Positions 4,565 through 25,099 of a stretch of 64,000 bases of DNA are shown here, piece by piece. The notes beneath the pieces are model-generated. The model was not told the origin of the DNA and made no database searches. It saw only the letters and a program-made list of their open reading frames with translations. Position 1 is the stretch's first letter. Every line of letters begins with the position of its first letter. The position numbers were made by a program, and so were the translations under genes. Location of the stretch: assembly GCA_964570935.1 (NCBI GenBank), contig CAZMZP010000050.1:891-64890 (forward strand), in the 5' to 3' direction. The DNA comes from an uncultured bacterium. GTDB lineage: Bacteria; Eisenbacteria; RBG-16-71-46; JAFGJU01.

Positions 4565-6518
4565 GTTTCCTGACCCCCTCGTTTCGTCCGGTCGAGCTCG
4601 TGTTCCCTTCTGCGGCAGCCGGCAGCCTCACGGTGAAGGCGGCTCCCTTTCCCGGCTCGCTCGTTACCGACAGTTCGCCTCCGTGAGCCCGCACTATCTC
4701 GTGAGTGATGTACAGACCCAACCCGGTACCGCCCGGCTTCGTCGTGAAGAAGGGCTCGAAGATCCTGTCCAGGTTCTCGGGCTGAATCCCGGGGCCGGAA
4801 TCGCCCACCGTGATTTCCACTCCGCCGCAGGACTCCGGCTCGGCTTCCTCTACGCTCGCCATGTCGATCTTGATCTCGCCGCCCTGCGGCGTCGCTTCCA
4901 CCGCGTTCCTTATCAGATTGATGAACACCTGCTGCATCTGGTCCGCGTCCATCTGCACGGGTTGCGGCTTACCGGTCACCGACATGTCCAGACTCAGTGC
5001 CTTGTCCGACGCCGAGGTCCCCAGCGACCTGAGCGCCCTCTCCACCACGTCTTCAACGCAGGCCTCGGCCAGAACGAGCTCTTGCGGATGAGTGACGCTG
5101 AGAAGGTCCTGTATGATCCGCTCGAGCCGCGCGACCTCCCTCAGCAGGAATTTCACGTTGTCCGCTTCGGGCCCGGTGTCCCCGAACTGCCTGCTCATGT
5201 ACTGAATTCCCGCGGCTATGCCGGAGAGCGGGTTTCTCACCTCGTGCGCCACGCTGGCAGCGAACCTGCCCAGCGCGGCCAGCCGGTCCAGCTGCCGCAC
5301 CTTCTCTTCCAGCTTCCTGGCCGGCCTGAGGTCCGTGAACGTCACGATCACGCCCCGGACGTTGTCCCTTTCGTCCCTGAGGAGGCGTGATGTCATCCTG
5401 ACGGGCACCGTGCCCTTCGACCGCTTGCTGACCACCGTGTCCACCGCGGTCTGTTCCTCCCCGTGGAGCAGTGCTCTCGTCACTGGCGATTGCTCCTCCG
5501 TCTCGGGAGGGATGAGAAAACCGCTCTTGGCGCCGGCCACTTCCTCGGCGCTGAAGCCCGTCACCGCCTCGGCGGCCTCATTGAAGGCCTGCAGCCGGCC
5601 GCAGAGGTCGAAGGCCACGAGACACTCCCCCATCGAGTCCAGTAGTCTCTGCCTGAACTCCTCACCCACCCGGAGAGCTCCGTACAGCCGGTTGCTCTCC
5701 AGCACTCCGGACACGTTGAATCCAACGGACTCGAGCATGGAGAGGTCTCCGGGCGACATCTCGTCCGCGCCCTTCCGCGCCGCCGTCACCATCCCCAGCA
5801 GGGGGAACACGTCGCACTTTACGCAGGATTCCCTTCTCCTGGACGGGTCGAATCCCTTCTCGTGGAAGCACAGCGTCGAGGAAGCCTCCCAGCAGAACCC
5901 CGGCCTTTCCAGGTACGCTCCGCACTCCTGTTTTATGCATTTCTTGGCTTCACGGCACGAGAGCCACTGTCGAGACGACACGAGCGGCACCACGGCCATC
6001 GCGTGGCCGGGGCCGGAAACATCTATCTCGAGCCGACGGCCGACTTCTTCCGACGGCATCACGGAAGTCTGCATGTGCCACAGTGACTCCCCGAGCTTGC
6101 CCTCGAGGTCGGACGGCCGCACCACGACTTCAGAGGTCCGGACCTCGTCCTCCCCGTAGACCGTGTGCCGTCCCTGCATAAGCCCCGTTTCCCTGTTCAT
6201 CAGCCAGAGCCCCACGTCGTCCATTCCGAGAACTCTGTGCATGTAAGAGGAGACGGTCTGAAGGGCCTCTTCCGGCTTCACGTTCGACAGCATGCTCTCT
6301 GCTATCTCGCGGACGACCGAAAGCTTGGTGTCGGTCTCTATCAGCCGGCGATGGGTGGTCTCCAGGGCGTCTATCAAATCCTGGCAGACCCTGCTGAGAG
6401 TTGTCTCGTCGTCCAGGGAGCTGTAGTCGGACGGGTTGAGAGTCGTGAAGGATCGGAGGTCCTCCACTCTCTTGAGGAGAGGACGGTTGTCTCTGCGGAT
6501 TTCCTGACGCTTCGGCAC
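4557..6518 (-). CDS. cytoplasmic sensor histidine kinase (GAF - Cys-rich insert - PAS - HisKA - HATPase)
   Basis: 653 aa; H-box HEVRNPLSGI, G2 box GTGLGLYITHEIV; no transmembrane segment; 8-nt overlap with the downstream NtrC-type regulator gene suggests a cognate pair. Confidence 0.9.
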   Translation of the reverse strand: MPKRQEIRRDNRPLLKRVEDLRSFTTLNPSDYSSLDDETTLSRVCQDLIDALETTHRRLIETDTKLSVVREIAESMLSNVKPEEALQTVSSYMHRVLGMDDVGLWLMNRETGLMQGRHTVYGEDEVRTSEVVVRPSDLEGKLGESLWHMQTSVMPSEEVGRRLEIDVSGPGHAMAVVPLVSSRQWLSCREAKKCIKQECGAYLERPGFCWEASSTLCFHEKGFDPSRRRESCVKCDVFPLLGMVTAARKGADEMSPGDLSMLESVGFNVSGVLESNRLYGALRVGEEFRQRLLDSMGECLVAFDLCGRLQAFNEAAEAVTGFSAEEVAGAKSGFLIPPETEEQSPVTRALLHGEEQTAVDTVVSKRSKGTVPVRMTSRLLRDERDNVRGVIVTFTDLRPARKLEEKVRQLDRLAALGRFAASVAHEVRNPLSGIAAGIQYMSRQFGDTGPEADNVKFLLREVARLERIIQDLLSVTHPQELVLAEACVEDVVERALRSLGTSASDKALSLDMSVTGKPQPVQMDADQMQQVFINLIRNAVEATPQGGEIKIDMASVEEAEPESCGGVEITVGDSGPGIQPENLDRIFEPFFTTKPGGTGLGLYITHEIVRAHGGELSVTSEPGKGAAFTVRLPAAAEGNTSSTGRNEGVRKRG

Positions 6519-6561: not shown

Positions 6562-7326
6562 CTACGCCCCAGTCATTTTCTTCGCGAGCACGACGAGGGT
6601 CTTGAGCAGGATCTTGAGGTCCGAGACTACTCTCAGGTTGCGCAGGTAGCGGAGGTCCAAGTCCAGTTTCCTGTGGATTTCCTCCTCCGTAATGTCGTCC
6701 AGTGCAGATACCTGCGCCAGTCCCGTGATCCCAGGTCGCACCCTGAGCCTCGCAGTGTACTCAGGTAACTTATCGGCAAATTTCTTGACAAAATGAGGTC
6801 TTTCGGGCCGCGGCCCCACCAGACTCATCTCGCCCTTGAACACGTTCCAGAGCTGCGGCAGTTCGTCCACGCGCAGCAATCTCAGGATGCCTCCCACACG
6901 GGTGACTCGCGGGTCGTGCGGCGACGCCCACGTGGGGCCCGTCAGGTCCTCGGCGTTCCGAAGCATGGTCCGGAACTTATGTATCCGGAAGAGTCTGCCG
7001 GGGCTCAGGATGTTTCGCCTCTCGCCCTTCCGCAAGTCGACTCGGACGTCCAACGGCTCACGCCTTCGCGTTCCCCAGCGCCTCTCCTGCCCTATCCTGA
7101 TCTGGGTGTAGAACACCGGCCCGGGCGAATCGATCTTGATTAGCAGCGCGACCAGCAGAAGGAAAGGCAGCAGAAGCGCCAGCCCCACGCCGGAAATGAG
7201 GACGTCCAGCCCGCGTTTCAGGAAAACGGTGTTGACCGGGATCTCGACACGCGGGAACTCCCTCAGCTCCAGGCGGGGTTTGCGAGTCTCGGCCCGCTCC
7301 CCCGTTGTCAGCTCTCTGTGTTCCAC
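6562..7326 (-). CDS. small monotopic phosphoglycosyl (sugar) transferase, PglC/WbaP C-terminal-domain type
   Basis: 254 aa; one N-terminal TM helix; bacterial sugar transferase motifs KFRTM, SLVGPRPE, RPGITGLAQV. Confidence 0.85.
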   Translation of the reverse strand: MEHRELTTGERAETRKPRLELREFPRVEIPVNTVFLKRGLDVLISGVGLALLLPFLLLVALLIKIDSPGPVFYTQIRIGQERRWGTRRREPLDVRVDLRKGERRNILSPGRLFRIHKFRTMLRNAEDLTGPTWASPHDPRVTRVGGILRLLRVDELPQLWNVFKGEMSLVGPRPERPHFVKKFADKLPEYTARLRVRPGITGLAQVSALDDITEEEIHRKLDLDLRYLRNLRVVSDLKILLKTLVVLAKKMTGA

Positions 7327-7475
7327 TCTTCCGCCCTTCGCACGTTGTCAGCCCCAAAAAAGCTCCGCTCGTTCTGCAACCGGGGATGCGCTCGGAGATT
7401 CGCGCCCGGCAGCCGACACGAGCGGCATCGCAGGACATTCTGCTTTATGAAACGGTCAGCACACCCCTGCCGGCC

Positions 7476-8330
7476 CTATCTGACCCTGACGAAAAACAGG
7501 AACACAATCGCGGCCAGGAAGACGGCGAAGACTATCATCGTCAGGTGCCTGCCGTACTGCTGCACGAGCGGCCGCAACGCCGTCGGAATACTGCTAGGCC
7601 GCTCCACTGCCTTGGTACGGATGAACTTCTTCTTGGGTTGCGCCCCCGCAGGGTCCTGCTGCGGACCCTGCGACGCGGGAACAGTCTCCACCACGAGTCC
7701 CGTCATGCTCGAGTCCGGCGCGCTGCTTCTGGCCGACGCCGGGCCGGTAGTACCCTCGCCCAAAACGAGTCCCAGTCCCTGCTGGGCCGTCTCCCTGGCC
7801 TGCTCCACGGTTATACCCAGCAGGCCGGCGATCAGCACCCCGACCGCAATCACTATCACGAGGCCGATCAGGAAGCGAAGCAGACTCCCGCCGACGCTCG
7901 CGCGCGGCGTGACCATCTGCCCCTCTCCGGTCCGCTCCCCCCGGATAAGGAACCCGTATCGTCTGTCCTTGAGCGCGCCCTCCAGTTTGTTCAGGAATAT
8001 GAAGATCCTGTGCCACTGCGCGATTATCTCTTCGATCTCTTCCCTCGAAAACGGCTCCGGCGTGGCCAACGTGGTGAACGAGTTCAACATCTCGGTTATG
8101 TCACGCACGGCGGCAAGCGCCTCCGGGTCTATGCTCCTGCCTCGCTCGATGACAGTAAGCACCGGCAGGAGGTGCGCGATCTTGGCCTTCAACGCCAGGA
8201 ACTGCTCCTCCTGGGCGCTCTGTACACCTTCTTTACCCAGGCTGGTCTTCAGAAACTCCCCGAACACCACCCAGGTCTCGATGAGCTTTCTCAGTCTCCG
8301 CCTGCCGTTCATTCCGTTAGCCACGTCCAC
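7476..8330 (-). CDS. hypothetical membrane protein (N-terminal soluble domain, TM helix, Gly/Pro/Ser/Gln-rich linker, C-terminal TM helix)
   Basis: 284 aa ORF with protein-like composition, unlike the overlapping plus-strand ORFs; co-directional and directly downstream of tadC. Confidence 0.5.
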   Translation of the reverse strand: MDVANGMNGRRRLRKLIETWVVFGEFLKTSLGKEGVQSAQEEQFLALKAKIAHLLPVLTVIERGRSIDPEALAAVRDITEMLNSFTTLATPEPFSREEIEEIIAQWHRIFIFLNKLEGALKDRRYGFLIRGERTGEGQMVTPRASVGGSLLRFLIGLVIVIAVGVLIAGLLGITVEQARETAQQGLGLVLGEGTTGPASARSSAPDSSMTGLVVETVPASQGPQQDPAGAQPKKKFIRTKAVERPSSIPTALRPLVQQYGRHLTMIVFAVFLAAIVFLFFVRVR

Positions 8331-8412
8331 ACGGCCTCCTTCACAGCGATCTTGCCCGGCTCGGCCGGGCTGGATGCTGCCCGGCCAGGTACCAAAACGT
8401 GTATCGGTCGGC

Positions 8413-8769
8413 CTACCAGTATATCTTGACCATCAGGACATTCTTCTTGGGGACCACCACCTGATCCTCCACCTTCTGCCCCGTCCGCTTGGTCCCGTAG
8501 CCCTGCGAAAGGGCTATTTCGTAGTCAGATATCTTCACCAGTCTGCCGCAGTACTTGGGGCCGCTCCATGTGTAGACCTCGATGTACGAGGTGGAGGCGG
8601 CGTTGCTTCCCCACGGTTTCAGGAAAAACACTTCTTTCCAGACGTAGACCTCCGGCTCGACGTCCGCCGCAAGGACGTACGGTCTGTACACTCCGGCGGC
8701 CAGAGCCGGTACCGCGACGCACAGAAGCATGGAGACCATCAGACCCATCATCAGAACGCGTGTCTTCAT
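8413..8769 (-). CDS. hypothetical small secreted protein
   Basis: 118 aa; cleavable signal peptide (MKTRVLMMGLMVSMLLCVAVPALAAG); beta-rich mature part; 40 nt downstream of tadC. Confidence 0.5.
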   Translation of the reverse strand: MKTRVLMMGLMVSMLLCVAVPALAAGVYRPYVLAADVEPEVYVWKEVFFLKPWGSNAASTSYIEVYTWSGPKYCGRLVKISDYEIALSQGYGTKRTGQKVEDQVVVPKKNVLMVKIYW

Positions 8770-8809
8770 CGAAAATCCCTCCTACCGAACTCGAGATGCG
8801 TCCATACGC

Positions 8810-9772
8810 CTAGGCTTTTACGGTAAGGCCGGCCAGGGTCCTCACTATGGTCACTACCGCCGGCCCGAGGATGACAACAAACAACGACGGAAATATGCAC
8901 AGCACCAGTGGGAACACCAGCTTCACCGGCGTTTTCGCCGCCGCCTCCTCCGCCCTCTGTCTTCTTCTCGTCCGCACCGTGTCGGCGTGCGTGCGCAGGG
9001 CCTGTGCCACGCTGGTGCCCAGCTTGTCGGTCTGCACGAGCATCGCCACCAGGGAGCTCAGTTCCTCCGCTCCCGTCCTTGTCGTCAGGTCCCGGAGCGC
9101 CTGCGCCCTGGGCTTACCCGCCTTGACCTCCTGCGTCACCTGCGCGAATTCACTGCTGAGAACGCTGCTCGTCAGCTTCATCTCGCTGGACACCCTGGCA
9201 ACGGCGGCGTCCAACCCCAGGCCCGCCTCCACGCACACGACCATTAGGTCCAGCGCGTCGGGCAGATGCCGGGTGATCTCCGCCTGCCGGCGCGAGGCCG
9301 CGTGCCGCAGCCAGTAGTCCGGCAGCAGGTATCCCCCGACGCCCACCAGGAGGCCCAGCAGCAGGATCAGGCCCGGTGAATGTCCGAGCCACGCGCCCAC
9401 CGGGATGTACAGCGCGAAAAGTATCATCGCCAGGAATATCTTGGCGCCCCGGTAGACCCTCAGGGCGTTGCTCTTGCGGTACCCGGCGTACGTAAGCAGC
9501 CTCTGTATCCTCGGCTCCGCTTTCTGTGCCTTTCCCGGCGCGAACCCTCCGACGAACTCCTTCACGGAGTCCGCGGCCGTGGACGACGCCTTCCTGGCCT
9601 TACCCAGCCACCTGCCGCGACGCCCCCCGGCCACCGGGACGACGTCGGTCAGACGGTCTATTCTCCTCTGCAGAGGGTCGGGTGCCCTGAACGCGAAGTG
9701 CAGCAGCAGGGCCGCGCACAAGCTCAGACTCAAGAAAACTAGCGCCATGATCACGGGCAAAGGTAGAAGCAT
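8810..9772 (-). CDS. tadC: Flp pilus assembly inner-membrane protein TadC (type II secretion system F family)
   Basis: 320 aa polytopic GspF-like protein; follows tadB with a 3-nt gap. Confidence 0.8.
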   Translation of the reverse strand: MLLPLPVIMALVFLSLSLCAALLLHFAFRAPDPLQRRIDRLTDVVPVAGGRRGRWLGKARKASSTAADSVKEFVGGFAPGKAQKAEPRIQRLLTYAGYRKSNALRVYRGAKIFLAMILFALYIPVGAWLGHSPGLILLLGLLVGVGGYLLPDYWLRHAASRRQAEITRHLPDALDLMVVCVEAGLGLDAAVARVSSEMKLTSSVLSSEFAQVTQEVKAGKPRAQALRDLTTRTGAEELSSLVAMLVQTDKLGTSVAQALRTHADTVRTRRRQRAEEAAAKTPVKLVFPLVLCIFPSLFVVILGPAVVTIVRTLAGLTVKA

Positions 9773-9775
9773 GTC

Positions 9776-10747
9776 CTAGACCTCTATGTTCACGATTTTA
9801 CGTATCCAGACGTACCCGATTACCATCAAGGTTCCAGCCACGCCCAGCATCAGCCGTCCGGTCGAGTCCTTGAAAAGGAACATGATGTAGCTCGGGTTGA
9901 TGAGCATGATGATGAGCCCCACTGTCACCGGCAGCAGCGCCAGCACTATCCCGGACAGCCGTGCGTCGGCGGTCAGAGACCGCATCTGGCCCAGGATCTT
10001 GAACCGCTCCCTGATTGTGTAGCTGATCTTCTCGAGGATCTCCGCCACGTTGCCGCCGGTCTCTCTCTGGATCACCATGGCAATGACGAAGAACCTCACG
10101 TCCATGCTGTCTATCCTGTCGGCCAGGTTCATCAGGGCCTCTTTGAAGCTGAGCCCCAGATTCTGTTCGTCGAAAGTCTCTTTGAACTCGGACGACACAG
10201 GGTCGGGCATCTCGTCCGCCACGAGCTGTATCGCGCCGGTGAATGCGTGGCCGGCCCTCAGAGCGCTGGTCATCAGGTCGAGGGCGTCCGGGAACTGGCT
10301 CACGAAAGACCTCACTCTCTTCCTCTTCCTCCGCACGACGTTGAGCGTCGGCAGGCAGCCCAGGGCGCCGCCGCCGACTATTGCGGATATCACGCTCCGG
10401 CCGATGAAGTAGCCGAGCCCGGAACCCGCAGCCACGAAGACCAGCGTGAACAGCAGGAGCTCGCCCACGCGCATGGGCGACTCAGCCTGCCTGAGCAGTC
10501 TGTCCAGCTTGTGCGCCAGCTTGACCTTGGACAATCCCTTGTGCAAAGCCGGGATCTGGCTCATGAGCTCGTCCCGCAGGATGCTGGCGGAGACCAAGGC
10601 CTCCCTGCCGTGTTCCTTGCTCAGGGCGCTCAGCCGTTTCCTCATCCATGCCGCGCGAGTCTCCGGCGAACCCCTCCCCGCGAGCCCCAATGAGAGAAAC
10701 AGGAATGCGACTGCGAGGAGTACCAGTACGGATACTACGATGAGCAA
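9776..10747 (-). CDS. tadB: Flp pilus assembly inner-membrane protein TadB (type II secretion system F family)
   Basis: 323 aa GspF-like platform protein directly downstream of the CpaF ATPase gene. Confidence 0.8.
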   Translation of the reverse strand: MLIVVSVLVLLAVAFLFLSLGLAGRGSPETRAAWMRKRLSALSKEHGREALVSASILRDELMSQIPALHKGLSKVKLAHKLDRLLRQAESPMRVGELLLFTLVFVAAGSGLGYFIGRSVISAIVGGGALGCLPTLNVVRRKRKRVRSFVSQFPDALDLMTSALRAGHAFTGAIQLVADEMPDPVSSEFKETFDEQNLGLSFKEALMNLADRIDSMDVRFFVIAMVIQRETGGNVAEILEKISYTIRERFKILGQMRSLTADARLSGIVLALLPVTVGLIIMLINPSYIMFLFKDSTGRLMLGVAGTLMVIGYVWIRKIVNIEV

Positions 10748-10783
10748 GTGCGTCTCCTCTCCCTGAAGATTACTCCGTGACCC

Positions 10784-12133
10784 CTAGACGTCGTCAAAGA
10801 TGCCCGGAGGAAGGTGAACTCCGGCCACGAAGAGCCTCTCGGCGAACTTGGGCCTTATGCCGGTGGGCTTGAACCTCCCCAGGACCGTGCCGTCCTCGGA
10901 CACTCCCAGACGTTCGAACACGAAGATGTCCTGCATGGTGACGACGTTGCCTTCCATGCCTACAATCTCAGCCACGTTCGTCACTCTTCTTCTTCCGTCA
11001 GTCAAACGGGCTATCTGGACTACCACGTTGAGCGCCGAAGCGATCTGCTCGCGGATGGCCTTCTCCGGGAGCTCCAGCCCGGCCATCAGAACCATGGTCT
11101 CGATACGACTCAGCGAATCGCGAGGCGTGTTCGCATGGACGGTCGTCATCGAACCGTCGTGGCCGGTGTTCATGGCCTGGAGCATGTCCAGTGCCTCGTC
11201 GCCTCTGACCTCTCCCACGATTATCCTGTCAGGCCGCATACGCAGGGCGTTCCTGACGAGGTCTCTCTGGGTGATGCGTCCCCTGCCCTCTATGTTCGGC
11301 GGCCGCGTCTCGAGCCTTACCACGTGCTCCTGCTGGAGCTGGAGCTCAGCCGCGTCCTCTATGGTCACCACTCTCTCCTCTCCGGGCACGAACCCGGACA
11401 ACACGTTCAGCAGAGTCGTCTTGCCCGCGCCGGTTCCGCCGGAGATGAGGATGTTGAGCTTCGCCTTGACGGCGCCCTTCAAGAGCTCCAGCATGGCCGG
11501 AGTCATGCTCTCGAAGGTCAACAGGTCGTTAGCGGTGAGCGGATTCGCCCCGAACCTTCGAATCGACAGCACCGGGCCGTCGATAGACAGCGGCGGGATG
11601 ATGGCATTCACTCGAGACCCGTCCGGGAGTCTCGCGTCCACCATTGGGGAGGACTCGTCCACTCTCCTTCCGACCGCGGCCACTATCCTGTCTATGATCT
11701 GCCTGACGTGGTTGTCGTCCTTGAACTTGACTCCCGTCAGCTCCAGCTTTCCGAACCTCTCGACGTACACCTGGTCGTGGCCGTTGACCAGGATGTCGGA
11801 GAGGGTCGGGTCCGCCAGAAGCGGCTCAATGGGGCCCAGCCCCAGAGTCTCGTGGACGACTTCCTCTGTGAGCTTCTCCCGGTCGGCCCTGCTCAGCGGA
11901 AGGGTCTCGCCCGCTATGATCGCCTCGAGCGCGAGCCGGACCTGCCCGCGGAGCTGGTCCTGCGGGATGGTGTCGATGGTCGCGAGGTCGAGCTTCTCGA
12001 TGAGCTTGTGATGCACTCTCGACTTCAGCTCCTGGTAGGCGTCCCTGGTCTCGGGCTCCGCCCCCCTGTACCCGAAGCGTTCCATCTTCACCTTCGGCGT
12101 CTGCTGACGCCCGAGTCTTTCGAAGAGTGCCAT
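10784..12133 (-). CDS. cpaF: Flp pilus assembly ATPase CpaF/TadA
   Basis: 449 aa; Walker [14 protein letters not shown]; type II/IV secretion NTPase motifs. Confidence 0.9.
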
Positions 12134-12136
12134 TCT

Positions 12137-13324
12137 CTACCTCCTCAGGAGCTTCGCCAGCGAGCGTTTCTTGGGGGCTTCCGCCTCGATCTCTTCCTCG
12201 GGGCCCATCCTGCACATTGCGTACGCCAGCTCGCGCAAATTCACCGTCACTGGCGACTGCGGCGCGGATTCGATCAGAGGCACCCCCGAATTGATGGAGT
12301 TGCTGACGCTCGCGTAGTCGTTCGGTATGCGCCAGAAAACGGGATACTCAAAGCTCTTCTCGAATTTCTCCACGACCACCGACTTGTTCGGTACGAACCG
12401 GTTGAGCAGGAGCTTCACTTTGTCACGGCCGTAGCCCAACCTCTGGAATATCTCTATGCACCTCTTCGAGTTTCTTATCGCCGGCAGCTCCAGGGCCGAC
12501 ACCAGGAAGATCGCGTCGGACAGGTCGAGGGTCTCCACGCATCTTTCGTCGAACGTGTGCGACGTGTCGACGATCACGTACTCGAACATCGAACGCAGCA
12601 ACCGCAGCACCTGGCCTATCTGTTCCGCCGTGATGGCCTCCGCCTCCTCGGCCTGCTGAGGCTCCGCCATGACGTACGCGCCGGACGAATGCTGGACCAT
12701 GTGCCCCCTGAGAAGAGTCTGGTCCAGTTTCTCGTAGCTCCGCGCCACGTCGGCGATGGTGTAGGTGGGCTGCACGTTGAGGAACATGGCCGCGTCGCCG
12801 AACTGGAGGTCAAGGTCCACGACCGCGGCCGACTTGCCGCAGGCCTTGGCCAGCATGACCGCCAGGTTCACCGCGAGCATCGTCGTGCCCAGCCCGCCCT
12901 TGTTGCTGAATATCGTGATTATCTCGCCCGCCACCGTGCCCTGCGTCTGGACCTTTCTCATCACCTTTCGGATGGCGGCGACGACCTCGTCCTGGTCCAG
13001 CGGGCGTTTGAGGAACTCTTGTATGCCGGACCGCATGGCCTTGAGTATCACGTCCGGCTTCGTCTCAGACGAGACGGCGAAGATAGACGCCTGCGGGTAC
13101 ACCTCCACGATCTTGGCCGCGGTCGCCAGGTGGTCCTCCGCGGGAGACGAGATTTCCAGGAACACGATGTGCGGCCTGAACTGCCTGACCAGGTTGACTC
13201 CGACGCGCAGGTCGTCCGACTCCGCGCGCACCTGAGCTCCGGGCAGCTCCCGCAGAATGTTCTTGAGCGAGTAGTGAACGTCCTTGTCGCTGTCGATTAT
13301 GACAATAGAGATTTCGTCCAGCAT
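12137..13324 (-). CDS. cpaE: Flp pilus assembly protein CpaE/TadZ (pseudo-receiver + MinD/ParA-like ATPase)
   Basis: 395 aa; N-terminal receiver-like fold with Glu (FLEIS) at the phospho-acceptor position; deviant Walker A SNKGGLGTT. Confidence 0.8.
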   Translation of the reverse strand: MLDEISIVIIDSDKDVHYSLKNILRELPGAQVRAESDDLRVGVNLVRQFRPHIVFLEISSPAEDHLATAAKIVEVYPQASIFAVSSETKPDVILKAMRSGIQEFLKRPLDQDEVVAAIRKVMRKVQTQGTVAGEIITIFSNKGGLGTTMLAVNLAVMLAKACGKSAAVVDLDLQFGDAAMFLNVQPTYTIADVARSYEKLDQTLLRGHMVQHSSGAYVMAEPQQAEEAEAITAEQIGQVLRLLRSMFEYVIVDTSHTFDERCVETLDLSDAIFLVSALELPAIRNSKRCIEIFQRLGYGRDKVKLLLNRFVPNKSVVVEKFEKSFEYPVFWRIPNDYASVSNSINSGVPLIESAPQSPVTVNLRELAYAMCRMGPEEEIEAEAPKKRSLAKLLRR

Positions 13325-13330
13325 ACTTGT

Positions 13331-14626
13331 CTATTCCACCATCTGGTATGACCACGTGAAGCTCTGGTTGCCGTCGCCGGGCTGGCTTCCCTTGACACAC
13401 GAAATGGGCGCCCGCGTAAGCCTGGCGGTTACGACGCTGTGCCTGTCAACCCCCTCTATGAAGAATGCCACTATCTTTGTCACGACGATAGTGTTCCCCC
13501 TCTCCTCCGTGAGTCTTCCGGACTCCGGCCACATTCTGGGGTCGAAGACAGGGACAAATATTATCCTGGGGCTCTCTCCTATGTTTCCGCCATCAGAGGA
13601 GTGGTCCACGTTGTCTACTTCTTCACTCCAGAACGCGTCGGGATCCTGCTCCAGGATGTCCTTGGTGCCCTGGACCGTGGGTCCGACCATGTTGCCCGGC
13701 TCGCTCTCCAGGGTGAACTCCTCATTTGGATCGATGACCGTCGGGTTGCACTTACTGATGTTTTCTCTATAAGCGGCGGCGCCGCGGCGGGCCTCGCCAT
13801 ATTCCTCAGGCCACGGCAGGACGATGGGATTGAAGAAGCTAGCAGCAGGTCTGGTTTCCTGTGCGCCGAGCTTAAGAAAGACCTGCATTCCCACATTTCC
13901 GTCCGGCGGCAAACTGGGGATGTAACCGGCCTCGTTCGCCTGCGACAACGCTCTGTCGTAGTGCTCGCTGTCGTAGACCCCGTTCCCGTTCCCGTCCGTG
14001 AACGTTTCGCCCGGATCGTAGAGTCTATTGCCGTTGGAGTCGGTGAACTTCTCGCCGTTCCACCTACCGTTGTTCTGCCACGACGATTTTCCGGTCGAGT
14101 ATCCGGGAATAGGGGTCGTGTCGTCCCAAAGATCAGGTATGGTCCAGGGCTTGACGCAGCATGCAGTCGAGCTCGGGGTCACGAGGAGGACCGCCCTGGC
14201 CGACACGTCGGCGAAGGGAATCCGCAAGATCTTGGCGAAGAAGAGCGGCAGGCCGTTGTCTCTTGACCGCAACTTGCGGGCATACACGGTGAGTCTCTTG
14301 TCGGCGATTATGATGTCTTCTGCCGGCACTATGTACACTGACTCGTCGTTGCCGGCCTTGTGCCTCCCAGCCATCTCGATCACTCTGTTGGCGACTTCGC
14401 TCGACTTGGTCGGCTCCTCCAGGATCATGGCGCCCGCCGCGGCCAGGACGCAGGCGTCAGCCGCGTTCTGGAGCTGCTGCTTGGTGACCATGATGTAGCC
14501 TATGTCCACGGCGAAGGCCGCAAGGGCCAGCATGGCTATGATGAGAAAACCTATGAGGGGCAACACGGCCCCCCGCTGCGAAAACAATAGAGTCACACCT
14601 TTACCAGACTGTCTCATTGCGCTCAC
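13331..14626 (-). CDS. TadG-like pilus-associated protein (Tad N-terminal pseudopilin-like domain)
   Basis: 431 aa; N-terminal TM plus VDIGYIMVTKQQLQNAADA motif typical of the TadE/TadG N-terminal domain; large extracytoplasmic C-terminal region. Confidence 0.7.
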   Translation of the reverse strand: MSAMRQSGKGVTLLFSQRGAVLPLIGFLIIAMLALAAFAVDIGYIMVTKQQLQNAADACVLAAAGAMILEEPTKSSEVANRVIEMAGRHKAGNDESVYIVPAEDIIIADKRLTVYARKLRSRDNGLPLFFAKILRIPFADVSARAVLLVTPSSTACCVKPWTIPDLWDDTTPIPGYSTGKSSWQNNGRWNGEKFTDSNGNRLYDPGETFTDGNGNGVYDSEHYDRALSQANEAGYIPSLPPDGNVGMQVFLKLGAQETRPAASFFNPIVLPWPEEYGEARRGAAAYRENISKCNPTVIDPNEEFTLESEPGNMVGPTVQGTKDILEQDPDAFWSEEVDNVDHSSDGGNIGESPRIIFVPVFDPRMWPESGRLTEERGNTIVVTKIVAFFIEGVDRHSVVTARLTRAPISCVKGSQPGDGNQSFTWSYQMVE

Positions 14627-15811
14627 CTACTCCTCTCCAGATGCCCTCCCGGTGCCCGGCCAGGCAGGCACATCTGATGCGCTGTACGAGCCCACGATCT
14701 TCGGCGTCACCAACAGCACCAGCTCGGTCTCGTTCTGCATGAAACTCGTGCTCTTGAACAGCAAACCGAGAATAGGGATGTCGCCGAGGATCGGGAACTT
14801 CGAAACACCCTTTGAATCCTCTCTCGTAATCAAACCGGCCACGACGAGCGTCTGGCCGTCCTTGAGCTCTACCGTGCTCTGGGCTCTTCTCGTACGAAGG
14901 GCCGGTATCGCATACCCGCCCAACACTATTCCGTTGTCCCAGTCGAGAGTGCTCACTTCGGGCTCCACCTTGAGGCTCACCACGCCCGAATCCACGACCG
15001 TGGGCGTAAACTTGAGCTGAACTCCGAATTCCTTCCACTCTATTGTCACGCTGTTTCCGCCGCCGCCGGTCTGGAGTATGGGAACCGGTATCTCGCCGCC
15101 GGCCAGAAACTCCGCCTGATGTCCGCTTATCGCAACGAGGGTGGGCTCGGCCAGCGTGTTGACGACACCCTTCTTCTCCAGTGCCTTCAAAGCCGCTTCG
15201 ACGCCGTATGACGGGTGCGCCAGAGAAAGGTACGTGGTCACGCCCGAACTCAGGGTGAGAGGGATGGTAGGCGGTGTCACCTGGCCGGCGAAGCTTCCCA
15301 CGACGGCCTCCTGGAAGTCCTCACCGAAGATTCTAGGATTGAGGTCCGTGCTCACGAAGTCGACGCCCAACTCCTTCATGGCCGTCCTGTTCACCTCGGC
15401 GAACCGGACTTTGAGCATCACCTGCTGAAACGACGTGTCGGTATGAACGACCAGGTTGTAGAAAGTGGGCCTTTCCTCGCTGTCCCATACGACCAGGCTG
15501 GTCGTGCCCGGAGCCTTTCCGTTCACCAGGAGCTGCTTGGGAGAGGCCACCATGACGTCGGCTATGGCCGGGTCCGTCACCGAAACGCGCGTGATGTTCT
15601 CAGTGAACGTGATGACCTGTGATTTACCTACGATGACCTCCATCTTGAGGAGTGCGCCCGCGGGGACGACCGCGGCCGAAACGTCGCGAGCCAGACACGG
15701 TGTCAAAAGCAGCAGGCTGGACACAACCAGCCAGGCAAGACGTCTTCTGCTAAGCATGATCGCTGTTCTCCTCCATTCCCCGGCTTCCCTGGGAGGAAAG
15801 CTGCGGGTCAA
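14627..15811 (-). CDS. cpaC: Flp pilus secretin CpaC/RcpA
   Basis: 394 aa; signal peptide; secretin domain (TLVAISGHQAEFLAGGEIPVP, ETELVLLVTPKIV). Confidence 0.85.
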   Translation of the reverse strand: MTRSFPPREAGEWRRTAIMLSRRRLAWLVVSSLLLLTPCLARDVSAAVVPAGALLKMEVIVGKSQVITFTENITRVSVTDPAIADVMVASPKQLLVNGKAPGTTSLVVWDSEERPTFYNLVVHTDTSFQQVMLKVRFAEVNRTAMKELGVDFVSTDLNPRIFGEDFQEAVVGSFAGQVTPPTIPLTLSSGVTTYLSLAHPSYGVEAALKALEKKGVVNTLAEPTLVAISGHQAEFLAGGEIPVPILQTGGGGNSVTIEWKEFGVQLKFTPTVVDSGVVSLKVEPEVSTLDWDNGIVLGGYAIPALRTRRAQSTVELKDGQTLVVAGLITREDSKGVSKFPILGDIPILGLLFKSTSFMQNETELVLLVTPKIVGSYSASDVPAWPGTGRASGEE

Positions 15812-15845
15812 AACCGCACAAGATCAGCGCATGAACTGAGTATGT

Positions 15846-16727
15846 CTATCTCGATTGAGACTTGTCTTCAAATTTCTCCTCTGTCCTCTTCGAGCCCCGG
15901 ATCACCTCGACACCGATGGTCTTCTTCTCCGGCTTCGCGGCGGGCTTCACTTCCGCCGTGGTCCTCGCGGACGGCCTCGGCCGCGTGACTCTCACCGGCG
16001 CCGCCACTCTCTGAACCGGCTCGCTCTTAGAAAGCATCTCGGCGATGGTAGTGCCCTTCGTGCCTGCTGAATCCGAGTCCGCGGGGTTCCTCAGGATCAG
16101 GTTGATCTCGCCCTCGTGAGCGCACAGAGCAAGTTTCTCCGCCTCGCTCGGGGTCACCAGGAGCGTCACCGCGGTCGACTTGAGGGGTCTTCCCTCGGTG
16201 TCCTCGATCTTCTGGTCGACGGCCAGCACAGTCAGGTTTTGAAGTACTACCTTTCCCACCTGCTCTCTGCTCAGCTCAGGTCTTATCGTCACTACTAAAT
16301 CGATCTTGGTCTCGGGCAGCACGAAGCCGGCTACCCCGGACCAGACGTTGACGGGCACGGTCATGGCCCTCATTCCCTCGGGTATCAGTATGGCCAGCCC
16401 CCTGTTCATGCCGATGGGAACCAGCTTTGTCTCGAGGAGGGCTTCGCCCGCCACGACCGGCGACTTGACGACTCTGCCGTACAGATCCTGAGGCGACGTG
16501 GAGGCTCCCGCGGGGACTATCTCAACCGGCCAGCCGACGGCCTCGACGTTCGTCTCGTCCAGGACGCTGCCGAAGGGAAGGTCCTTGATGGCCACCACTA
16601 CCGGCTGCTCTGCGATCTTCTTCTCACGGATCATCTTGTCGTACTGGGCAAGGTAGCGATAAATCGCGACCGCTGCCAGGAGCCCGAAAACGACGGCAAG
16701 AATCACAACAACCCTGATTCTGGTCAC
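15846..16727 (-). CDS. cpaB: Flp pilus assembly protein CpaB/RcpC
   Basis: 293 aa; N-terminal TM anchor; SAF/CpaB-type domain; Ala/Pro/Lys-rich C-terminal tail. Confidence 0.8.
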   Translation of the reverse strand: MTRIRVVVILAVVFGLLAAVAIYRYLAQYDKMIREKKIAEQPVVVAIKDLPFGSVLDETNVEAVGWPVEIVPAGASTSPQDLYGRVVKSPVVAGEALLETKLVPIGMNRGLAILIPEGMRAMTVPVNVWSGVAGFVLPETKIDLVVTIRPELSREQVGKVVLQNLTVLAVDQKIEDTEGRPLKSTAVTLLVTPSEAEKLALCAHEGEINLILRNPADSDSAGTKGTTIAEMLSKSEPVQRVAAPVRVTRPRPSARTTAEVKPAAKPEKKTIGVEVIRGSKRTEEKFEDKSQSR

Positions 16728-16749
16728 TTGAAAAACCTCCGTCTCAAGT

Positions 16750-17163
16750 TCAGATTTCCCGACGCATGCTGCAGGAAGCTCTCAGGGGCAGTTCGTCCAA
16801 TCTCGGGAATAGATGCGCAAAAGAGGTGTGGAACGCAACGATGACGTTGACTGTGACGGGCACCCCTATGGACGGAGTGCCTTCAAGAACCACGTTCACC
16901 TGGATGTCGTCGTCAGGGATGTGGGAATCGTAGAGGACCTCCCTGACCTTCGTCTCCACGGTACCCAGGTTGTCTTCCACGTCGGGAACTATTGCTGCGT
17001 AGCGGGCCCCGACTCTCGCGGCGCCGTTGGCGACGCCCAGAAGCATCCACGCTCTGGAGAACTCAGCCATCGCGATGATCACCAGAAAAAGCATCATCGC
17101 GACTAGAGCGAACTCGACTACTGCCGCGCCTTTGTTAGATTGTATTCTTCGCACATGTCTCAT
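16750..17163 (-). CDS. tadE: TadE-like minor pilin/pseudopilin
   Basis: Start taken at MRHVRRIQSNKGAAVVEFALV (TadE N-terminal motif); the ORF-track extension to 17256 has no support. Confidence 0.65.
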   Translation of the reverse strand: MRHVRRIQSNKGAAVVEFALVAMMLFLVIIAMAEFSRAWMLLGVANGAARVGARYAAIVPDVEDNLGTVETKVREVLYDSHIPDDDIQVNVVLEGTPSIGVPVTVNVIVAFHTSFAHLFPRLDELPLRASCSMRREI

Positions 17164-17281
17164 CACATAACCAGCTTTCCTGATGTTGCAGCGCAGACCA
17201 CAGTGTCCCCCGGACGGGTTTCGGTCCTCTCGAACGGCCCGCCCGAGGGAATTCAACTGGGTTCGGACTGTGGTCTCAGCC

Positions 17282-17452
17282 TTACGGCGTTGCGCCGAGT
17301 GCAGTCGCGATGGCCTCGAACACGCGGATAAGCTCGTCTCTGAGCAGGATTATCGCGGCGATGACGGCGATCGCAACCAGGGCTATGAGCAGCGCGTACT
17401 CGGTTATCGCAGCACCCTTGTTACCCTTGAACAGATTCTTCAGGAACCTCAT
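17282..17452 (-). CDS. flp: Flp family type IVb pilin
   Basis: 56-aa ORF absent from the ORF track: MRFLKNLFKGNKGAAITEYALLIALVAIAVIAAIILLRDELIRVFEAIATALGATP; conserved G/xxxxEY processing motif and hydrophobic core; strong SD AAAGGAGGA 8 nt upstream; heads the tad operon. Confidence 0.75.
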   Translation of the reverse strand: MRFLKNLFKGNKGAAITEYALLIALVAIAVIAAIILLRDELIRVFEAIATALGATP

Positions 17453-17552
17453 TTCTCCTGTCCTCCTTTCACACGGCCTCTAACACTTAACTAATCGGCA
17501 GCAAAACCTTCACTCCTTACGTCTTTTTCTGACAACACCTCCTTGTGCGAAC

Positions 17553-17575
17553 CGCAATCACGCCTTGGGATTGCG
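17553..17575 (-). promoter_or_regulatory. perfect inverted repeat CGCAATC-N9-GATTGCG in the flp leader
   Basis: 7-bp perfect palindrome arms seen directly; shares the GCAATC/GATTGC half-site with the palindrome at 62185-62204. Confidence 0.3.
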
Positions 17576-17682
17576 TTCCCGTGGTTGCCGCCCGCACACT
17601 ATTGTAGCGGGCGAACCGCTGTCAAGTTAATTATGCCCTCCTTCGGTTTGCCGTGGCGCGACTGTCTTCGCGGGACCCAAAA

Positions 17683-17698
17683 AGCAAACCCTATGCCA
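17683..17698 (-). promoter_or_regulatory. candidate sigma-54 (-24/-12) promoter upstream of flp
   Basis: Minus strand reads TGGCATAGGGTTTGCT versus consensus TGGCACG-N4-TTGCW; GG and GC elements correctly spaced; about 230 nt upstream of the flp ATG. Confidence 0.35.
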
Positions 17699-17943
17699 CG
17701 GCCGCGCTTTCCAGAGCCGATTTTCTAACTGATTTGAGGGTAATGTGTTGCAGGCAACGGACGGCCGCCATTGATCTCTCAAAAACCCGCCTCAGCCTCT
17801 GTTTAGCGCGGCATTTCTGTCGCACTAGAGGACAATTATGCCCTGGCGGCTCTTGATGTGCTCGCGGAATTCGAGCGGTTTCGGCGGTCGTATCTTCTTC
17901 AAGGTCAGCGAATCACACCACCACGAGCCGCCGGGCGCGGTTC

Positions 17944-18801: not shown

Positions 18802-18815
18802 GGTAGCTCCCTACG

Positions 18816-19778: not shown

Positions 19779-19812
19779 GTCCTCACGCCGTGTCCAGGGA
19801 AGCGCATTTCCG

Positions 19813-24714: not shown

Positions 24715-24769
24715 GAAAATGCACCGTTCCGCACTGAACCGACGTTGAGAAAAGCAAGTTCTATGCCAG

Positions 24770-25099
24770 TTACTCTGGAGAGGACTTCGTGAGGATTTCC
24801 CGTAAGAGGGGTCGCACCACCCTGAGCAGAACGACCAGGATTACGGCGACCATGGCGGCCGGCACAAACCACAGGTCGCCGAGGTCAATGTGTCCGACGC
24901 GTAGCATCCCGAAGAACTTGAACAGGGCGTATACCAGCGCCACCACCAGCACAACCGCAAGACCCAGCGAGACGCTCTTGCTGGCTGTCTGAGCCCTGCG
25001 GCGGCGGGACTCCGCCAACCCGGGCCACGCGGCTGCACCCCCCGTCCCGCGGCGAGCCGACGGCCTGGGAAAGTTGCGGCGCCTGTCCTCCAGTCTCAT
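24770..25099 (-). CDS. hypothetical small membrane protein (two TM helices)
   Basis: ORF only; start uncertain (an internal Met would give about 45 aa); co-directional between the M28 peptidase and the cyclase. Confidence 0.3.
   Translation of the reverse strand: MRLEDRRRNFPRPSARRGTGGAAAWPGLAESRRRRAQTASKSVSLGLAVVLVVALVYALFKFFGMLRVGHIDLGDLWFVPAAMVAVILVVLLRVVRPLLREILTKSSPE

What the first reader, a model, noticed from the sequence alone, without database searches (positions are those of the whole stretch)
7476..8769. Two uncharacterised envelope proteins fused to the 3' end of the tad operon, between tadC and a priming sugar transferase
Directly after tadC, in the same orientation and with short gaps, lie a 118-aa signal-peptide protein and a 284-aa protein. 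The latter has a soluble N-domain, a TM helix, a Gly/Pro/Ser/Gln-rich linker and a C-terminal TM helix. They occupy the slot where classical tad loci carry accessory components (TadD, RcpB, TadF/G). I could not assign them to any tad family, so they may be novel pilus or secretin accessory proteins, or something that links the pilus to the exopolysaccharide pathway downstream.
Basis: inference. Interest (0 to 1): 0.5.

Follow-up and report, generated by a model that had tools for sequence, protein, structure and literature searches.

The report
New pilus-machine accessory proteins ending tad operon
The two unassigned genes after tadC are real, conserved last genes of a Tad pilus operon in an uncultured Eisenbacteria genome, and the larger one belongs to an unannotated membrane-protein family that sat inside a type IV pilus gene cluster in all 17 loci examined.

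Summary
ORF118 (8413-8769, minus strand) is a signal-peptide protein. ORF284 (7476-8330, minus strand) has a soluble N-domain, a TM helix, a disordered loop and a C-terminal TM helix. Both follow tadC, have Shine-Dalgarno sites and coding-type GC3, and are under purifying selection.

Neither matches any Pfam, NCBIfam or PDB sequence family. The pair follows tadC in all 8 distinct related Eisenbacteria loci, while the genes downstream of it vary. A hairpin plus one of only two T6 runs on that strand in 64 kb ends the operon before the sugar transferase.

A profile search found about 85 more clusters related to ORF284. All 9 contexts read are type IV filament loci: six pilQ-pilT-X, one pilQ-X and two pilB-pilC-X-dprA. 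The part shared by all is a cytoplasmic four-helix bundle plus the first TM helix.

I therefore read ORF284 as a new inner-membrane accessory of the pilus motor, acting on the ATPase or platform. This partner assignment is inference. ORF118 is a periplasmic small beta-barrel found only in the Tad-linked clade. A link to exopolysaccharide synthesis is not supported. The biochemical role remains untested.

The parts
17684..17698 (-). Sigma-54 type -24/-12 element TGGCATAGGGTTTGC, about 245 nt upstream of flp; probable operon promoter
   Evidence: The motif TGGCA[CT]N5TTGC sits at -245 to -266 in the window and in 4 of 5 relatives. Function is inferred.
17282..17452 (-). Flp pilin (56 aa, G/AAITEYALL processing-type motif)
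   Evidence: The orthologous 56-58 aa genes in relatives hit PF04964 Flp_Fap.
16750..17256 (-). TadE-like pseudopilin
   Evidence: sequence. Orthologues in L001, L005 and L006 hit PF07811.
15846..16727 (-). CpaB/RcpC
   Evidence: Orthologues hit PF08666 and PF16976.
14627..15811 (-). Tad secretin (CpaC/RcpA)
   Evidence: PF00263 at 3.3e-47 and PF13629 at 8.8e-22.
13331..14626 (-). TadG-like protein
   Evidence: PF13400 at 7.1e-11.
12137..13324 (-). TadZ/CpaE (receiver domain plus MinD/ParA-type ATPase)
10784..12133 (-). TadA/CpaF ATPase
   Evidence: TIGR03819 at 1.4e-106. Orthologues hit PF00437.
9776..10747 (-). TadB platform protein
   Evidence: PF00482 at 3.4e-17.
8810..9772 (-). TadC platform protein
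   Evidence: PF00482 at 9e-22.
8695..8769 (-). ORF118 signal peptide (aa 1-25, cleavage-type site ALA|AG)
   Evidence: dN/dS is 0.5-0.8, typical of signal peptides. Cys17 is not conserved, so this is not a lipobox.
8416..8694 (-). ORF118 mature protein (93 aa). A conserved aromatic-rich N-part is followed by a 5-stranded small beta-barrel (aa 62-117). Predicted periplasmic.
7941..8330 (-). ORF284 cytoplasmic N-domain (aa 1-130): up-down four-helix bundle carrying the family signature W20, E41-x2-F44-L45, W106-H107, L113, G118
7815..7895 (-). ORF284 TM helix 1 (aa 146-172)
7587..7814 (-). ORF284 predicted periplasmic loop (aa 173-248): P/S/G/A/T-rich, disordered, variable in length and sequence
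   Evidence: pLDDT below 50 for aa 191-249. dN/dS is 0.3-0.5. Loop length is 89-109 aa in Tad-linked members and 34-146 aa in other members.
7479..7586 (-). ORF284 conserved juxtamembrane helix plus TM helix 2 (aa 249-284; P-x-ALRPL-x-RQYG-x-HLTM...FF-x-R)
   Evidence: dN/dS is 0.03-0.08. P254, G260 and R282 are nearly invariant across the wider family.
7356..7425 (-). Terminator-like element: long imperfect GC-rich hairpin followed by TTTTTT; probable end of the tad transcription unit
   Evidence: Fold. It is one of only two T6-or-longer runs on this strand in 64 kb. A hairpin with T5-7 sits at the same place in L001, L005, L006 and L008. The default scan missed it because the loop is long.

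Best explanation
ORF118 and ORF284 are the last two cistrons of the flp-tad operon of a Candidatus Eisenbacteria genome. The operon probably runs from a sigma-54 type promoter upstream of flp to a hairpin/T6 terminator after ORF284.

ORF284 belongs to a protein family that is not in Pfam, NCBIfam or the PDB. The family's constant core is a cytoplasmic four-helix bundle of about 140 aa followed by a TM helix. In every context I could read, it is encoded inside a type IV filament gene cluster: Tad, PilMNOPQ-PilT type, or PilB-PilC-DprA type.

The strongly constrained parts of ORF284 are cytoplasmic or intramembrane: the bundle, and the C-terminal juxtamembrane helix with TM2. The periplasmic loop evolves fast. 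The only components shared by all three locus types are the motor parts, namely the T2SSE-family ATPase, the T2SSF-family platform, and the pilins with their peptidase.

The most likely mechanism is therefore as follows. ORF284 is an inner-membrane accessory subunit. Its four-helix bundle docks on the ATPase/platform subcomplex at the cytoplasmic face. Its TM helices pack against the platform or pilin TM segments. In this way it tethers, positions or tunes the motor.

ORF118 is a secreted small beta-barrel protein confined to the Tad-linked clade. It probably works in the periplasm with the longer loop of the Tad-type ORF284, or with CpaB or the secretin.

Shown: gene reality, operon position, family membership, exclusive association with type IV filament loci, fold classes and the pattern of constraint. 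Inferred: topology, the binding partners and the effect on the motor.
For: - Gene reality: GC3 and Shine-Dalgarno sites and dN/dS.
- No known family. The Foldseek PDB search found nothing at E<=0.001.
- Synteny with tadC: 8 of 8 distinct Eisenbacteria loci keep the pair while the downstream genes vary.
- Wider family: the exhaustive profile search gave 86 clusters at E<=1e-3 and 46 at E<=1e-10, with the same architecture.
- Contexts of remote members: pilM-N-O-P-secretin-PilT-X in L011, L015, L016 and L017. PilT was confirmed at 389-396 bits against a TIGR01420 cutoff of 319. PilQ-PilT-X in L013 and L014. Secretin-X in L012. PilB-PilC-X-DprA in L018 and L019.
- Structure: AlphaFold2 shows a four-helix bundle, a TM helix, a disordered loop and a second TM helix.
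- Operon end: terminator-like element.
- Promoter: conserved sigma-54 element upstream of flp.
- ORF118 distribution: detected only in Tad-linked loci, 11 hits there and 0 in the other 9 loci.
Against: - There is no direct evidence of any physical interaction.
- Gene neighbourhood differs between subfamilies: after TadC/ORF118, after PilT, after the secretin alone in L012, and after PilC. Synteny alone therefore does not single out the ATPase or platform as partner.
- The basic stretch KKKFIRTK falls in the loop predicted to be periplasmic, which fits the positive-inside rule poorly. The topology is not certain.
- The most distant subfamily (L018, L019) matched at only E of about 4e-5 to 5e-4 in the library search.
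Confidence: 0.6

Rival explanations
1. ORF284 is a regulator rather than a structural or tethering subunit. In this reading it is a membrane-anchored switch or inhibitor. It would gate the motor ATPase (extension against retraction), or relay an envelope or pilus signal, for example to the neighbouring PAS histidine kinase and sigma-54 response regulator. ORF118 would be its periplasmic co-sensor.
For: - In T4aP-type loci the gene sits directly after the retraction ATPase PilT.
- A histidine kinase and a sigma-54 regulator are syntenic with the Tad-type locus in all relatives.
- The gene is last in the operon, so low stoichiometry is plausible.
Against: - The bundle hits are generic, with no Pfam signalling domain such as HAMP, PilZ or MshEN.
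- The kinase/regulator pair is absent from the loci of remote homologues.
- The fast-evolving, length-variable, disordered periplasmic loop is an unlikely ligand sensor.
Confidence: 0.22
2. The pair is a secretin or periplasmic assembly module. ORF118 would act as a non-lipoprotein pilotin or secretin-ring partner. The ORF284 loop would span the periplasm to link the inner membrane to the CpaB/secretin complex.
For: - No TadD, RcpB or CpaD homologue was detected in the window operon.
- ORF118 is secreted and has a fold class (Sm-like barrel) that often forms rings.
- In L012 the homologue follows a secretin gene alone.
- In T4aP-type loci the order is secretin-PilT-X.
Against: - The conserved parts of ORF284 are cytoplasmic or intramembrane, while the periplasmic loop has dN/dS of 0.3-0.5 and is predicted disordered.
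- The PilB-PilC-X-DprA loci show no secretin within 10 kb.
- ORF118 has no conserved lipobox Cys.
- ORF118 is absent from the secretin-containing T4aP-type loci.
Confidence: 0.13
3. The two proteins couple the pilus to the exopolysaccharide pathway encoded around the operon: the XrtA-type deacetylase upstream, and the priming sugar transferase downstream.
For: - The tad operon is nested between an XrtA-system polysaccharide deacetylase (TIGR03006, 311 bits against a cutoff of 276) and a PF02397 transferase.
- This nesting is conserved in relatives.
Against: - A terminator-like element separates ORF284 from the transferase.
- Relatives carry 2-5 unrelated or further tad genes in between.
- None of 9 remote-homologue loci has a polysaccharide-synthesis cluster next to the gene. 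The only sugar-related gene is one epimerase-family gene about 8 kb away on the opposite strand in L011.
- Neither protein resembles a Wzx, Wzy, PCP or OPX component.
Confidence: 0.03
4. The ORFs are lineage-specific hitch-hikers or mis-called ORFs with no role in the pilus.
For: - There is no annotation anywhere. Sources call them 'hypothetical protein'.
- Close homologues are confined to a few Eisenbacteria lineages; only 3 GTDB species representatives were found.
Against: - Strong purifying selection and coding-type GC3.
- The position after tadC is invariant in 8 of 8 loci.
- All 17 distinct family contexts lie in type IV filament loci.
Confidence: 0.02

Closest known systems
ATPase-tethering or alignment inner-membrane proteins of type IV filament machines: GspL/GspM of the T2SS, PilM-PilN-PilO of T4aP, and TadZ of Tad (established knowledge; component lists in PMC6668835)
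   Same: ORF284 is encoded in the machine's operon. It is anchored in the inner membrane with a folded cytoplasmic domain facing the motor. It is dedicated to type IV filament systems.
   Different: There is no sequence or specific fold similarity. The cytoplasmic domain is a four-helix bundle, not an actin-like (GspL, PilM) or MinD-like (TadZ) fold. The periplasmic part is a disordered loop that returns through a second TM helix, not a ferredoxin-like domain. PilMNOP and TadZ co-occur with the new family in the same loci, so it is an addition to them and not a replacement.
Classical Tad accessory genes downstream of tadC: TadD (TPR lipoprotein pilotin) and the TadE/F/G pseudopilins; also RcpB, which lies next to rcpA rather than after tadC
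   Same: ORF118 and ORF284 take the gene slot immediately 3' of tadC, in the same orientation and the same operon. ORF118 is exported, as those proteins are.
   Different: There are no TPR repeats, no conserved lipobox, and no TadE or Tad (PF07811, PF13400) prepilin-like N-terminus. Genuine TadE and TadG genes exist elsewhere in the same operon. In L003 and L007 they follow ORF28x.
Sm/Hfq-like small beta-barrels. From my own knowledge, cyanobacterial Hfq binds the pilus ATPase PilB; this was not tested here.
   Different: ORF118 carries a signal peptide and is therefore predicted to be extracytoplasmic. Sequence identity is 11-20%. The fold is very common, so this is a resemblance of fold class only.
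Four-helix-bundle sensor domains (4HB_MCP type) of chemoreceptors and histidine kinases
   Different: Those domains are periplasmic and sit between two TM helices. The ORF284 bundle is N-terminal, has no preceding signal or TM segment, and has no Pfam match. De novo designed bundles score equally well, so the match is generic.

Membership tests
Tad (Flp) pilus operon, as a co-transcribed component | Same strand as the core tad genes, contiguous with them, with short gaps and its own ribosome-binding sites | tested here: met
   Gaps are 40 nt and 82 nt, with GGAGGG and AAGGAGG Shine-Dalgarno sites. No sigma-70 or sigma-54 consensus lies in the gaps.
Tad (Flp) pilus operon, as a co-transcribed component | Linkage to tad core genes conserved in related genomes | tested here: met
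   The order tadB-tadC-ORF118-ORF28x is kept in 8 of 8 distinct loci, at ORF28x identities of 53-79% for the loci where it was measured, while downstream genes differ.
Tad (Flp) pilus operon, as a co-transcribed component | Transcription unit ends after the genes | tested here: inconclusive
   A hairpin with a T6 run lies 115 nt after the ORF284 stop. It is one of two such T-runs in 64 kb, and similar elements occur in 4 relatives. No RNA data are available.
TadD / pilotin | Lipoprotein signal (conserved lipobox Cys) plus TPR repeats | tested here: not met
   Cys17 of ORF118 is not conserved. There is no TPR hit. The model is all-beta.
TadE/TadF/TadG pseudopilins | N-terminal prepilin-like hydrophobic segment matching PF07811 or PF13400 | tested here: not met
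   ORF118 and ORF284 give no hit, whereas the operon's TadG-like gene hits PF13400 at 7e-11.
RcpB / CpaD | Sequence similarity to RcpB or to CpaD (PF09476) | tested here: inconclusive
   No Pfam or NCBIfam hit at E<=0.1. I could not confirm that an RcpB model is in these libraries, and I had no reference sequence to compare.
PilN/PilO/GspL/GspM alignment proteins | Bitopic protein with a folded periplasmic ferredoxin-like domain after a single TM helix | tested here: not met
PilP / GspC HR-domain proteins | Beta-sandwich HR domain, usually on a lipoprotein or TM anchor | tested here: not met
Hfq/Sm RNA-binding proteins | Cytoplasmic location and Sm1/Sm2 sequence motifs | tested here: not met
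   A signal peptide predicts export. Only fold-class similarity is seen, at 11-20% identity, with no Pfam LSM or Hfq hit.
New family defined here (ORF284-like accessory protein of type IV filament loci) | N-terminal bundle of about 140 aa with W20, E41-x2-F-L, W106(H), L113 and G118, followed by a TM helix at about aa 145-175 | tested here: met
   W20 and W106 are invariant, and E41, F44, L45, L113 and G118 are present in at least 90% of 67 aligned members. All 29 close homologues and most remote ones share the TM layout.
New family defined here (ORF284-like accessory protein of type IV filament loci) | Encoded within a type IV filament gene cluster | tested here: met
   All 17 distinct loci read meet this.

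The most novel reading that the evidence does not exclude
The ORF284 family is an unrecognised component of type IV filament motors that binds the hexameric ATPases directly (TadA, PilT or PilB). It would control which direction or activity state the motor adopts. If so, it would offer a handle on how single-ATPase Tad machines switch between extension and retraction. ORF118 would be a Tad-specific periplasmic ring or plug partner.
Probability: 0.15. Interest if true: 0.7.

Novelty: new variant of a known kind. Interest (0 to 1): 0.5.

Why it matters
Type IV filament machines (Tad, T4aP, T2SS, competence pili) are thought to have a well-catalogued parts list (PMC6668835). Here a protein family missing from Pfam, NCBIfam and the PDB turns up as a dedicated gene in three different kinds of such loci.

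If its cytoplasmic four-helix bundle really docks on the ATPase or platform, it adds a new element to models of how these motors are held and controlled at the membrane.

On the practical side, the result gives annotators a name and a signature for about 85 clusters of 'hypothetical proteins'. It also shows that the Eisenbacteria tad operon ends before the neighbouring polysaccharide genes. Because the family is so far seen mainly in uncultured lineages, its immediate experimental reach is limited.

Tried and rejected
- Pfam and NCBIfam scans of both proteins, of 10 remote homologues, and of all 67 members of alignment A6 gave nothing consistent.
- PDB sequence-profile searches found nothing below E=0.38.
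- The afdb50 fold library was not available.
- A profile search for distant ORF118 relatives returned only the same 118-aa family.
A narrower alignment returned only two short loci. The genome-contig scan found just 3 species representatives.
- A conserved RNA structure in the ORF118-ORF284 spacer is rejected. Hairpins exist, but z-scores range from -2.3 to +1.0 and the sequence is not conserved.
- A possible paralogue at 24770-25099 is rejected. The hit was a TM-segment artefact (hhalign probability 24%).
- The 280-aa gene that follows ORF28x in L001 is not a paralogue.
- Literature searches found no description of such a protein.
- The sigma-54 motif count over the whole window is not above chance (50 observed against 55 expected). 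Only the conserved position upstream of flp is meaningful.
Full report
**1. What is in the sequence**

All genes in this part of the window lie on the minus strand. Read 5' to 3' on that strand, the order is as follows:

| Gene | Coordinates | Main evidence |
|---|---|---|
| Flp pilin | 17282-17452 | G/AAITEYALL-type motif |
| TadE-like | 16750-17256 | sequence; orthologues hit PF07811 |
| CpaB/RcpC | 15846-16727 | orthologues hit PF08666, PF16976 |
| Secretin | 14627-15811 | PF00263, 3e-47 |
| TadG-like | 13331-14626 | PF13400 |
| TadZ/CpaE | 12137-13324 | receiver plus MinD/ParA-type ATPase |
| TadA/CpaF | 10784-12133 | TIGR03819, 1.4e-106 |
| TadB | 9776-10747 | PF00482 |
| TadC | 8810-9772 | PF00482 |
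| ORF118 | 8413-8769 | this finding |
| ORF284 | 7476-8330 | this finding |
| Small PF02397 sugar transferase | 6562-7326 | PF02397 |
| PAS histidine kinase | 4557-6518 | |
| Sigma-54-dependent response regulator | 3107-4564 | |

The gaps are 40, 82 and 149 nt. Both ORFs have strong Shine-Dalgarno sequences. The GTG start of ORF284 aligns with ATG in four of five relatives and TTG in L006.

**2. Are the ORFs real?**

The genome is 63% GC and produces long spurious ORFs in several frames. One example is a 502-aa ORF on the opposite strand across this region. Three observations show that the two ORFs are genuine genes:

- Their codon-position GC profile matches real genes here, with GC3 of 0.80-0.81 and GC2 of 0.38-0.44.
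- ORF284 has 28 further cluster-level homologues at 53-93% identity. ORF118 has 26, down to about 50% identity.
- Pairwise dN/dS against five relatives is low for the ORF284 N-domain (0.03-0.09), its C-terminal segment (0.03-0.08) and mature ORF118 (0.08-0.15). It is relaxed in the ORF284 loop (0.3-0.5) and the ORF118 signal peptide (0.5-0.8).

dS is saturated for the more distant pairs. The closest pair, against L008, is the most reliable.

**3. Anatomy**

ORF284 has four parts:

- A confidently modelled up-down four-helix bundle at aa 3-121 (pLDDT mostly 74-95, above 90 over much of the bundle).
- A TM helix at aa 146-172.
- A disordered Pro/Ser/Gly/Ala/Thr-rich segment at aa 191-249.
- A long C-terminal helix at aa 253-283. 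Its last 19 residues are hydrophobic and are followed by RVR.

**4. Not a known family**

- Neither protein hits Pfam or NCBIfam above noise.
- Ten remote homologues, and then all 67 members of a family alignment, also give no consistent Pfam hit.
- Profile searches of all PDB sequences give nothing below E=0.38.
- Every named homologue is labelled 'hypothetical protein', from Candidatus Eisenbacteria or from Latescibacteria DG_63.
- Three literature searches found no description.

**5. Synteny in close relatives**

In eight distinct loci the order is always tadB-tadC-ORF118-ORF28x. The ORF118-to-ORF28x spacer is about 82-95 nt where measured. The loci are the window, L001/L009 (a 2.69-Mb Eiseniibacteriota chromosome), L003, L005, L006, L007, L008 and L010.

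What follows the pair varies:

- The sugar transferase follows directly in the window, L006 and L008.
- TadE, a TadG-VWA protein and two further genes follow in L003 and L007.
- Five other genes follow in L001 and L005, including a TPR protein. In L005 one carries a weak PEP-CTERM match, and in L001 one carries a weak PEGA match.

The pair therefore travels with the tad core and not with the transferase.

Downstream of ORF284, a long GC-rich hairpin (7365-7425) is followed by TTTTTT (7356-7361). Only two T6-or-longer runs occur on this strand in the whole 64 kb. Comparable hairpins with T5-7 runs sit at the same place in L001, L005, L006 and L008. This is good, though indirect, evidence that the tad transcription unit ends after ORF284.

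At the other end of the operon, a sigma-54 -24/-12 element (TGGCA[CT]N5TTGC) lies 245-266 nt upstream of flp. It is present in the window and in four of five relatives.

**6. The decisive result: a wider family in other pilus loci**

An exhaustive HMM search with the ORF284 alignment was run against 1.84 billion cluster representatives. It found 86 proteins at E<=1e-3 and 46 at E<=1e-10. Most are 240-250 aa long and have the same layout.

Across 67 aligned members, W20 and W106 are invariant. E41, F44, L45, L113, G118, P254, G260 and R282 are nearly so. ORF284 against a PilT-linked member (L017) gives 24-32% identity, with tblastn E around 1e-17.

All nine are type IV filament loci:

| Locus | Gene order around the homologue (X) |
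|---|---|
| L015, L016, L017 | pilB-pilC-pilins-pilM-N-O-P-secretin-PilT-X |
| L011 | pilM-N-O-P-secretin-PilT-X |
| L013, L014 | PilQ-PilT-X |
| L012 | secretin-X |
| L018, L019 | PilB-PilC-X-DprA |

The PilT assignment is supported by TIGR01420 scores of 389-396 bits against a cutoff of 319. With the eight Tad loci, this makes 17 of 17 distinct loci.

PilQ identity of 47-67% to the named Eisenbacteria locus L017 suggests that the PilT-linked subfamily is also mostly from Eisenbacteria. L018 has 35% GC and must come from another lineage.

Architecture by subfamily:

| Subfamily | After the bundle and TM1 |
|---|---|
| All members | Bundle plus TM1 is universal |
| Tad-linked | Loop of 89-109 aa, then TM2 |
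| PilT-linked | Loop of 34-65 aa (or 116-146 aa), then TM2 |
| PilB-PilC-DprA-linked | Extracytoplasmic domain of 160-185 aa, no TM2 |

ORF118 relatives occur only in the Tad-linked loci.

**7. Mechanism**

The following points are shown:

- The family is dedicated to type IV filament loci.
- Its universally conserved module is the cytoplasmic bundle plus TM1.
- In ORF284, the second strongly constrained module is the C-terminal juxtamembrane helix plus TM2.
- The periplasmic loop is disordered, variable in length and fast-evolving.

From this I infer that the functional partners are cytoplasmic or intramembrane. The only such parts common to Tad, T4aP-type and PilB-PilC-DprA-type loci are the T2SSE-family ATPase, the T2SSF-family platform, and the pilins with their peptidase.

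My best reading is that ORF284 is an inner-membrane accessory that docks on the ATPase/platform subcomplex and tethers or tunes it. It would work somewhat like GspL, PilM-PilN or TadZ. It is not a member of those families, and it co-occurs with PilMNOP and TadZ rather than replacing them.

I put about 0.85 on 'dedicated pilus-machine accessory'. I put about 0.35-0.4 on the specific motor-docking mechanism, which gives the blended confidence of 0.6.

ORF118 is most simply a periplasmic partner. It could bind the longer, Tad-specific ORF284 loop, which keeps a few conserved positions (L190, G191, R238, P249). It could instead bind CpaB or the secretin. This rests only on co-occurrence.

**8. Rivals**

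- **Regulatory switch or sensor.** This remains plausible, given the gene's adjacency to PilT and the generic signalling-type fold.
- **Secretin-assembly role.** This is weak for ORF284 but open for ORF118.
- **Exopolysaccharide link.** This is not supported, for three reasons: the terminator, the variable insertions, and the absence of an adjacent polysaccharide-synthesis cluster at remote homologues. The only sugar-related gene in those loci is an epimerase-family gene about 8 kb away in L011.
- **Hitch-hiker ORFs.** This is effectively excluded by selection and synteny.

**9. Novelty and limits**

The Tad machine is a known kind of system. What is new is an unannotated accessory family shared between Tad and other type IV filament loci, plus a clade-specific secreted partner.

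- The most distant subfamily rests on E of about 1e-4 to 1e-5 in the library search. It is reinforced by hmmsearch E of 1e-20 and 5e-16 against the fetched loci (a few hundred kb of sequence) with the broader profile.
- Taxonomy of most metagenomic members is unknown.

Noticed in passing
window 17684-17698 (-); L001, L003, L005 and L007, about 245-266 nt upstream of flp: A canonical sigma-54 -24/-12 element (TGGCA[CT]N5TTGC) sits at a conserved distance upstream of flp in the window and 4 of 5 relatives. A PAS histidine kinase (4557-6518) and a sigma-54-dependent response regulator (3107-4564) are syntenic at the other end of the locus in the relatives whose contigs reach that far. The flp-tad operon is probably sigma-54-dependent, controlled by this pair, and has a long 5' leader of about 230 nt.
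   Followed up: partly
window 24754-24768 (-): A second sigma-54-like element (TGGCATAGAACTTGC) lies about 40 nt upstream of a GGDEF diguanylate cyclase gene (23599-24714). This hints that c-di-GMP synthesis and the pilus share a sigma-54 regulon.
   Followed up: no
window 17944-23559 and 6562-7326: The tad operon is nested inside an XrtA/PEP-CTERM-type polysaccharide locus. Upstream lie a TIGR03006 XrtA-system deacetylase (above cutoff), a TviC-like epimerase, an NDP-sugar dehydrogenase and an XrtA-type chain-length-determinant-like protein (below cutoff). Downstream lies a small PF02397 transferase. The deacetylase-tad-transferase nesting recurs in the relatives whose contigs reach that far (L003, L005, L006, L007; the epimerase only in L003 and L007).
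   Followed up: partly
window 7356-7425 (-); L001, L005, L006 and L008 downstream of ORF28x: A long-loop hairpin followed by a T6 run was missed by the default terminator scan. It is one of only two T6-or-longer runs on this strand in 64 kb. The other (18616-18621) lies inside the deacetylase gene.
   Followed up: yes
window 7327-17943: No prepilin peptidase (TadV/CpaA, PF01478) gene is in or next to the tad operon here or in the five relatives. A Peptidase_A24 gene lies near the T4aP-type locus of another Eisenbacteria genome (L017 13637-14425). One peptidase may serve both systems.
   Followed up: no
L001/L005 10969-16790; L003/L007 about 11000-15700: The segment between ORF28x and the sugar transferase is a variable cassette. 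In L003 and L007 it holds TadE, a TadG-VWA protein and two proteins of 384 and 425 aa. In L001 and L005 it holds a 280-aa protein, a 496-aa TPR protein, a 233-aa protein (weak PEP-CTERM match in L005), a 339-378 aa protein (weak PEGA match in L001, faint DUF5683) and a 425-aa protein. In the window, L006 and L008 it is empty. The position of TadG also differs: between the secretin and TadZ in the window, L001, L005, L006 and L008, and downstream in L003 and L007.
   Followed up: partly
L018 10001-12290; L019 10001-12565: The most distant family members sit between pilB-pilC and dprA. They carry an extracytoplasmic domain of 160-185 aa instead of a second TM helix. This suggests a competence-pilus-linked subfamily in other phyla; L018 has 35% GC.
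   Followed up: partly
L011 5802-8537; L017 10784-13480: In two T4aP-type loci the ORF284 homologue is followed by a protein of about 900 aa with Big_1/invasin repeats. It may be an adhesin linked to the pilus.
   Followed up: no
window 8331-8412 (-) and the equivalent spacers in relatives: Each ORF118-ORF28x spacer (about 82-95 nt where measured) can form a GC-rich hairpin. The sequences are not conserved, and folding z-scores range from -2.3 to +1.0, so there is no convincing conserved RNA element.
   Followed up: yes
window 7318-8826 (+) and 7305-8429 (+): Long ORFs of 502 and 374 aa on the opposite strand overlap both genes. They are by-products of the high GC content, not genes. They do not show the GC3-over-GC2 excess of real genes and were displaced by the minus-strand ORFs in the composition-based gene call.
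   Followed up: yes
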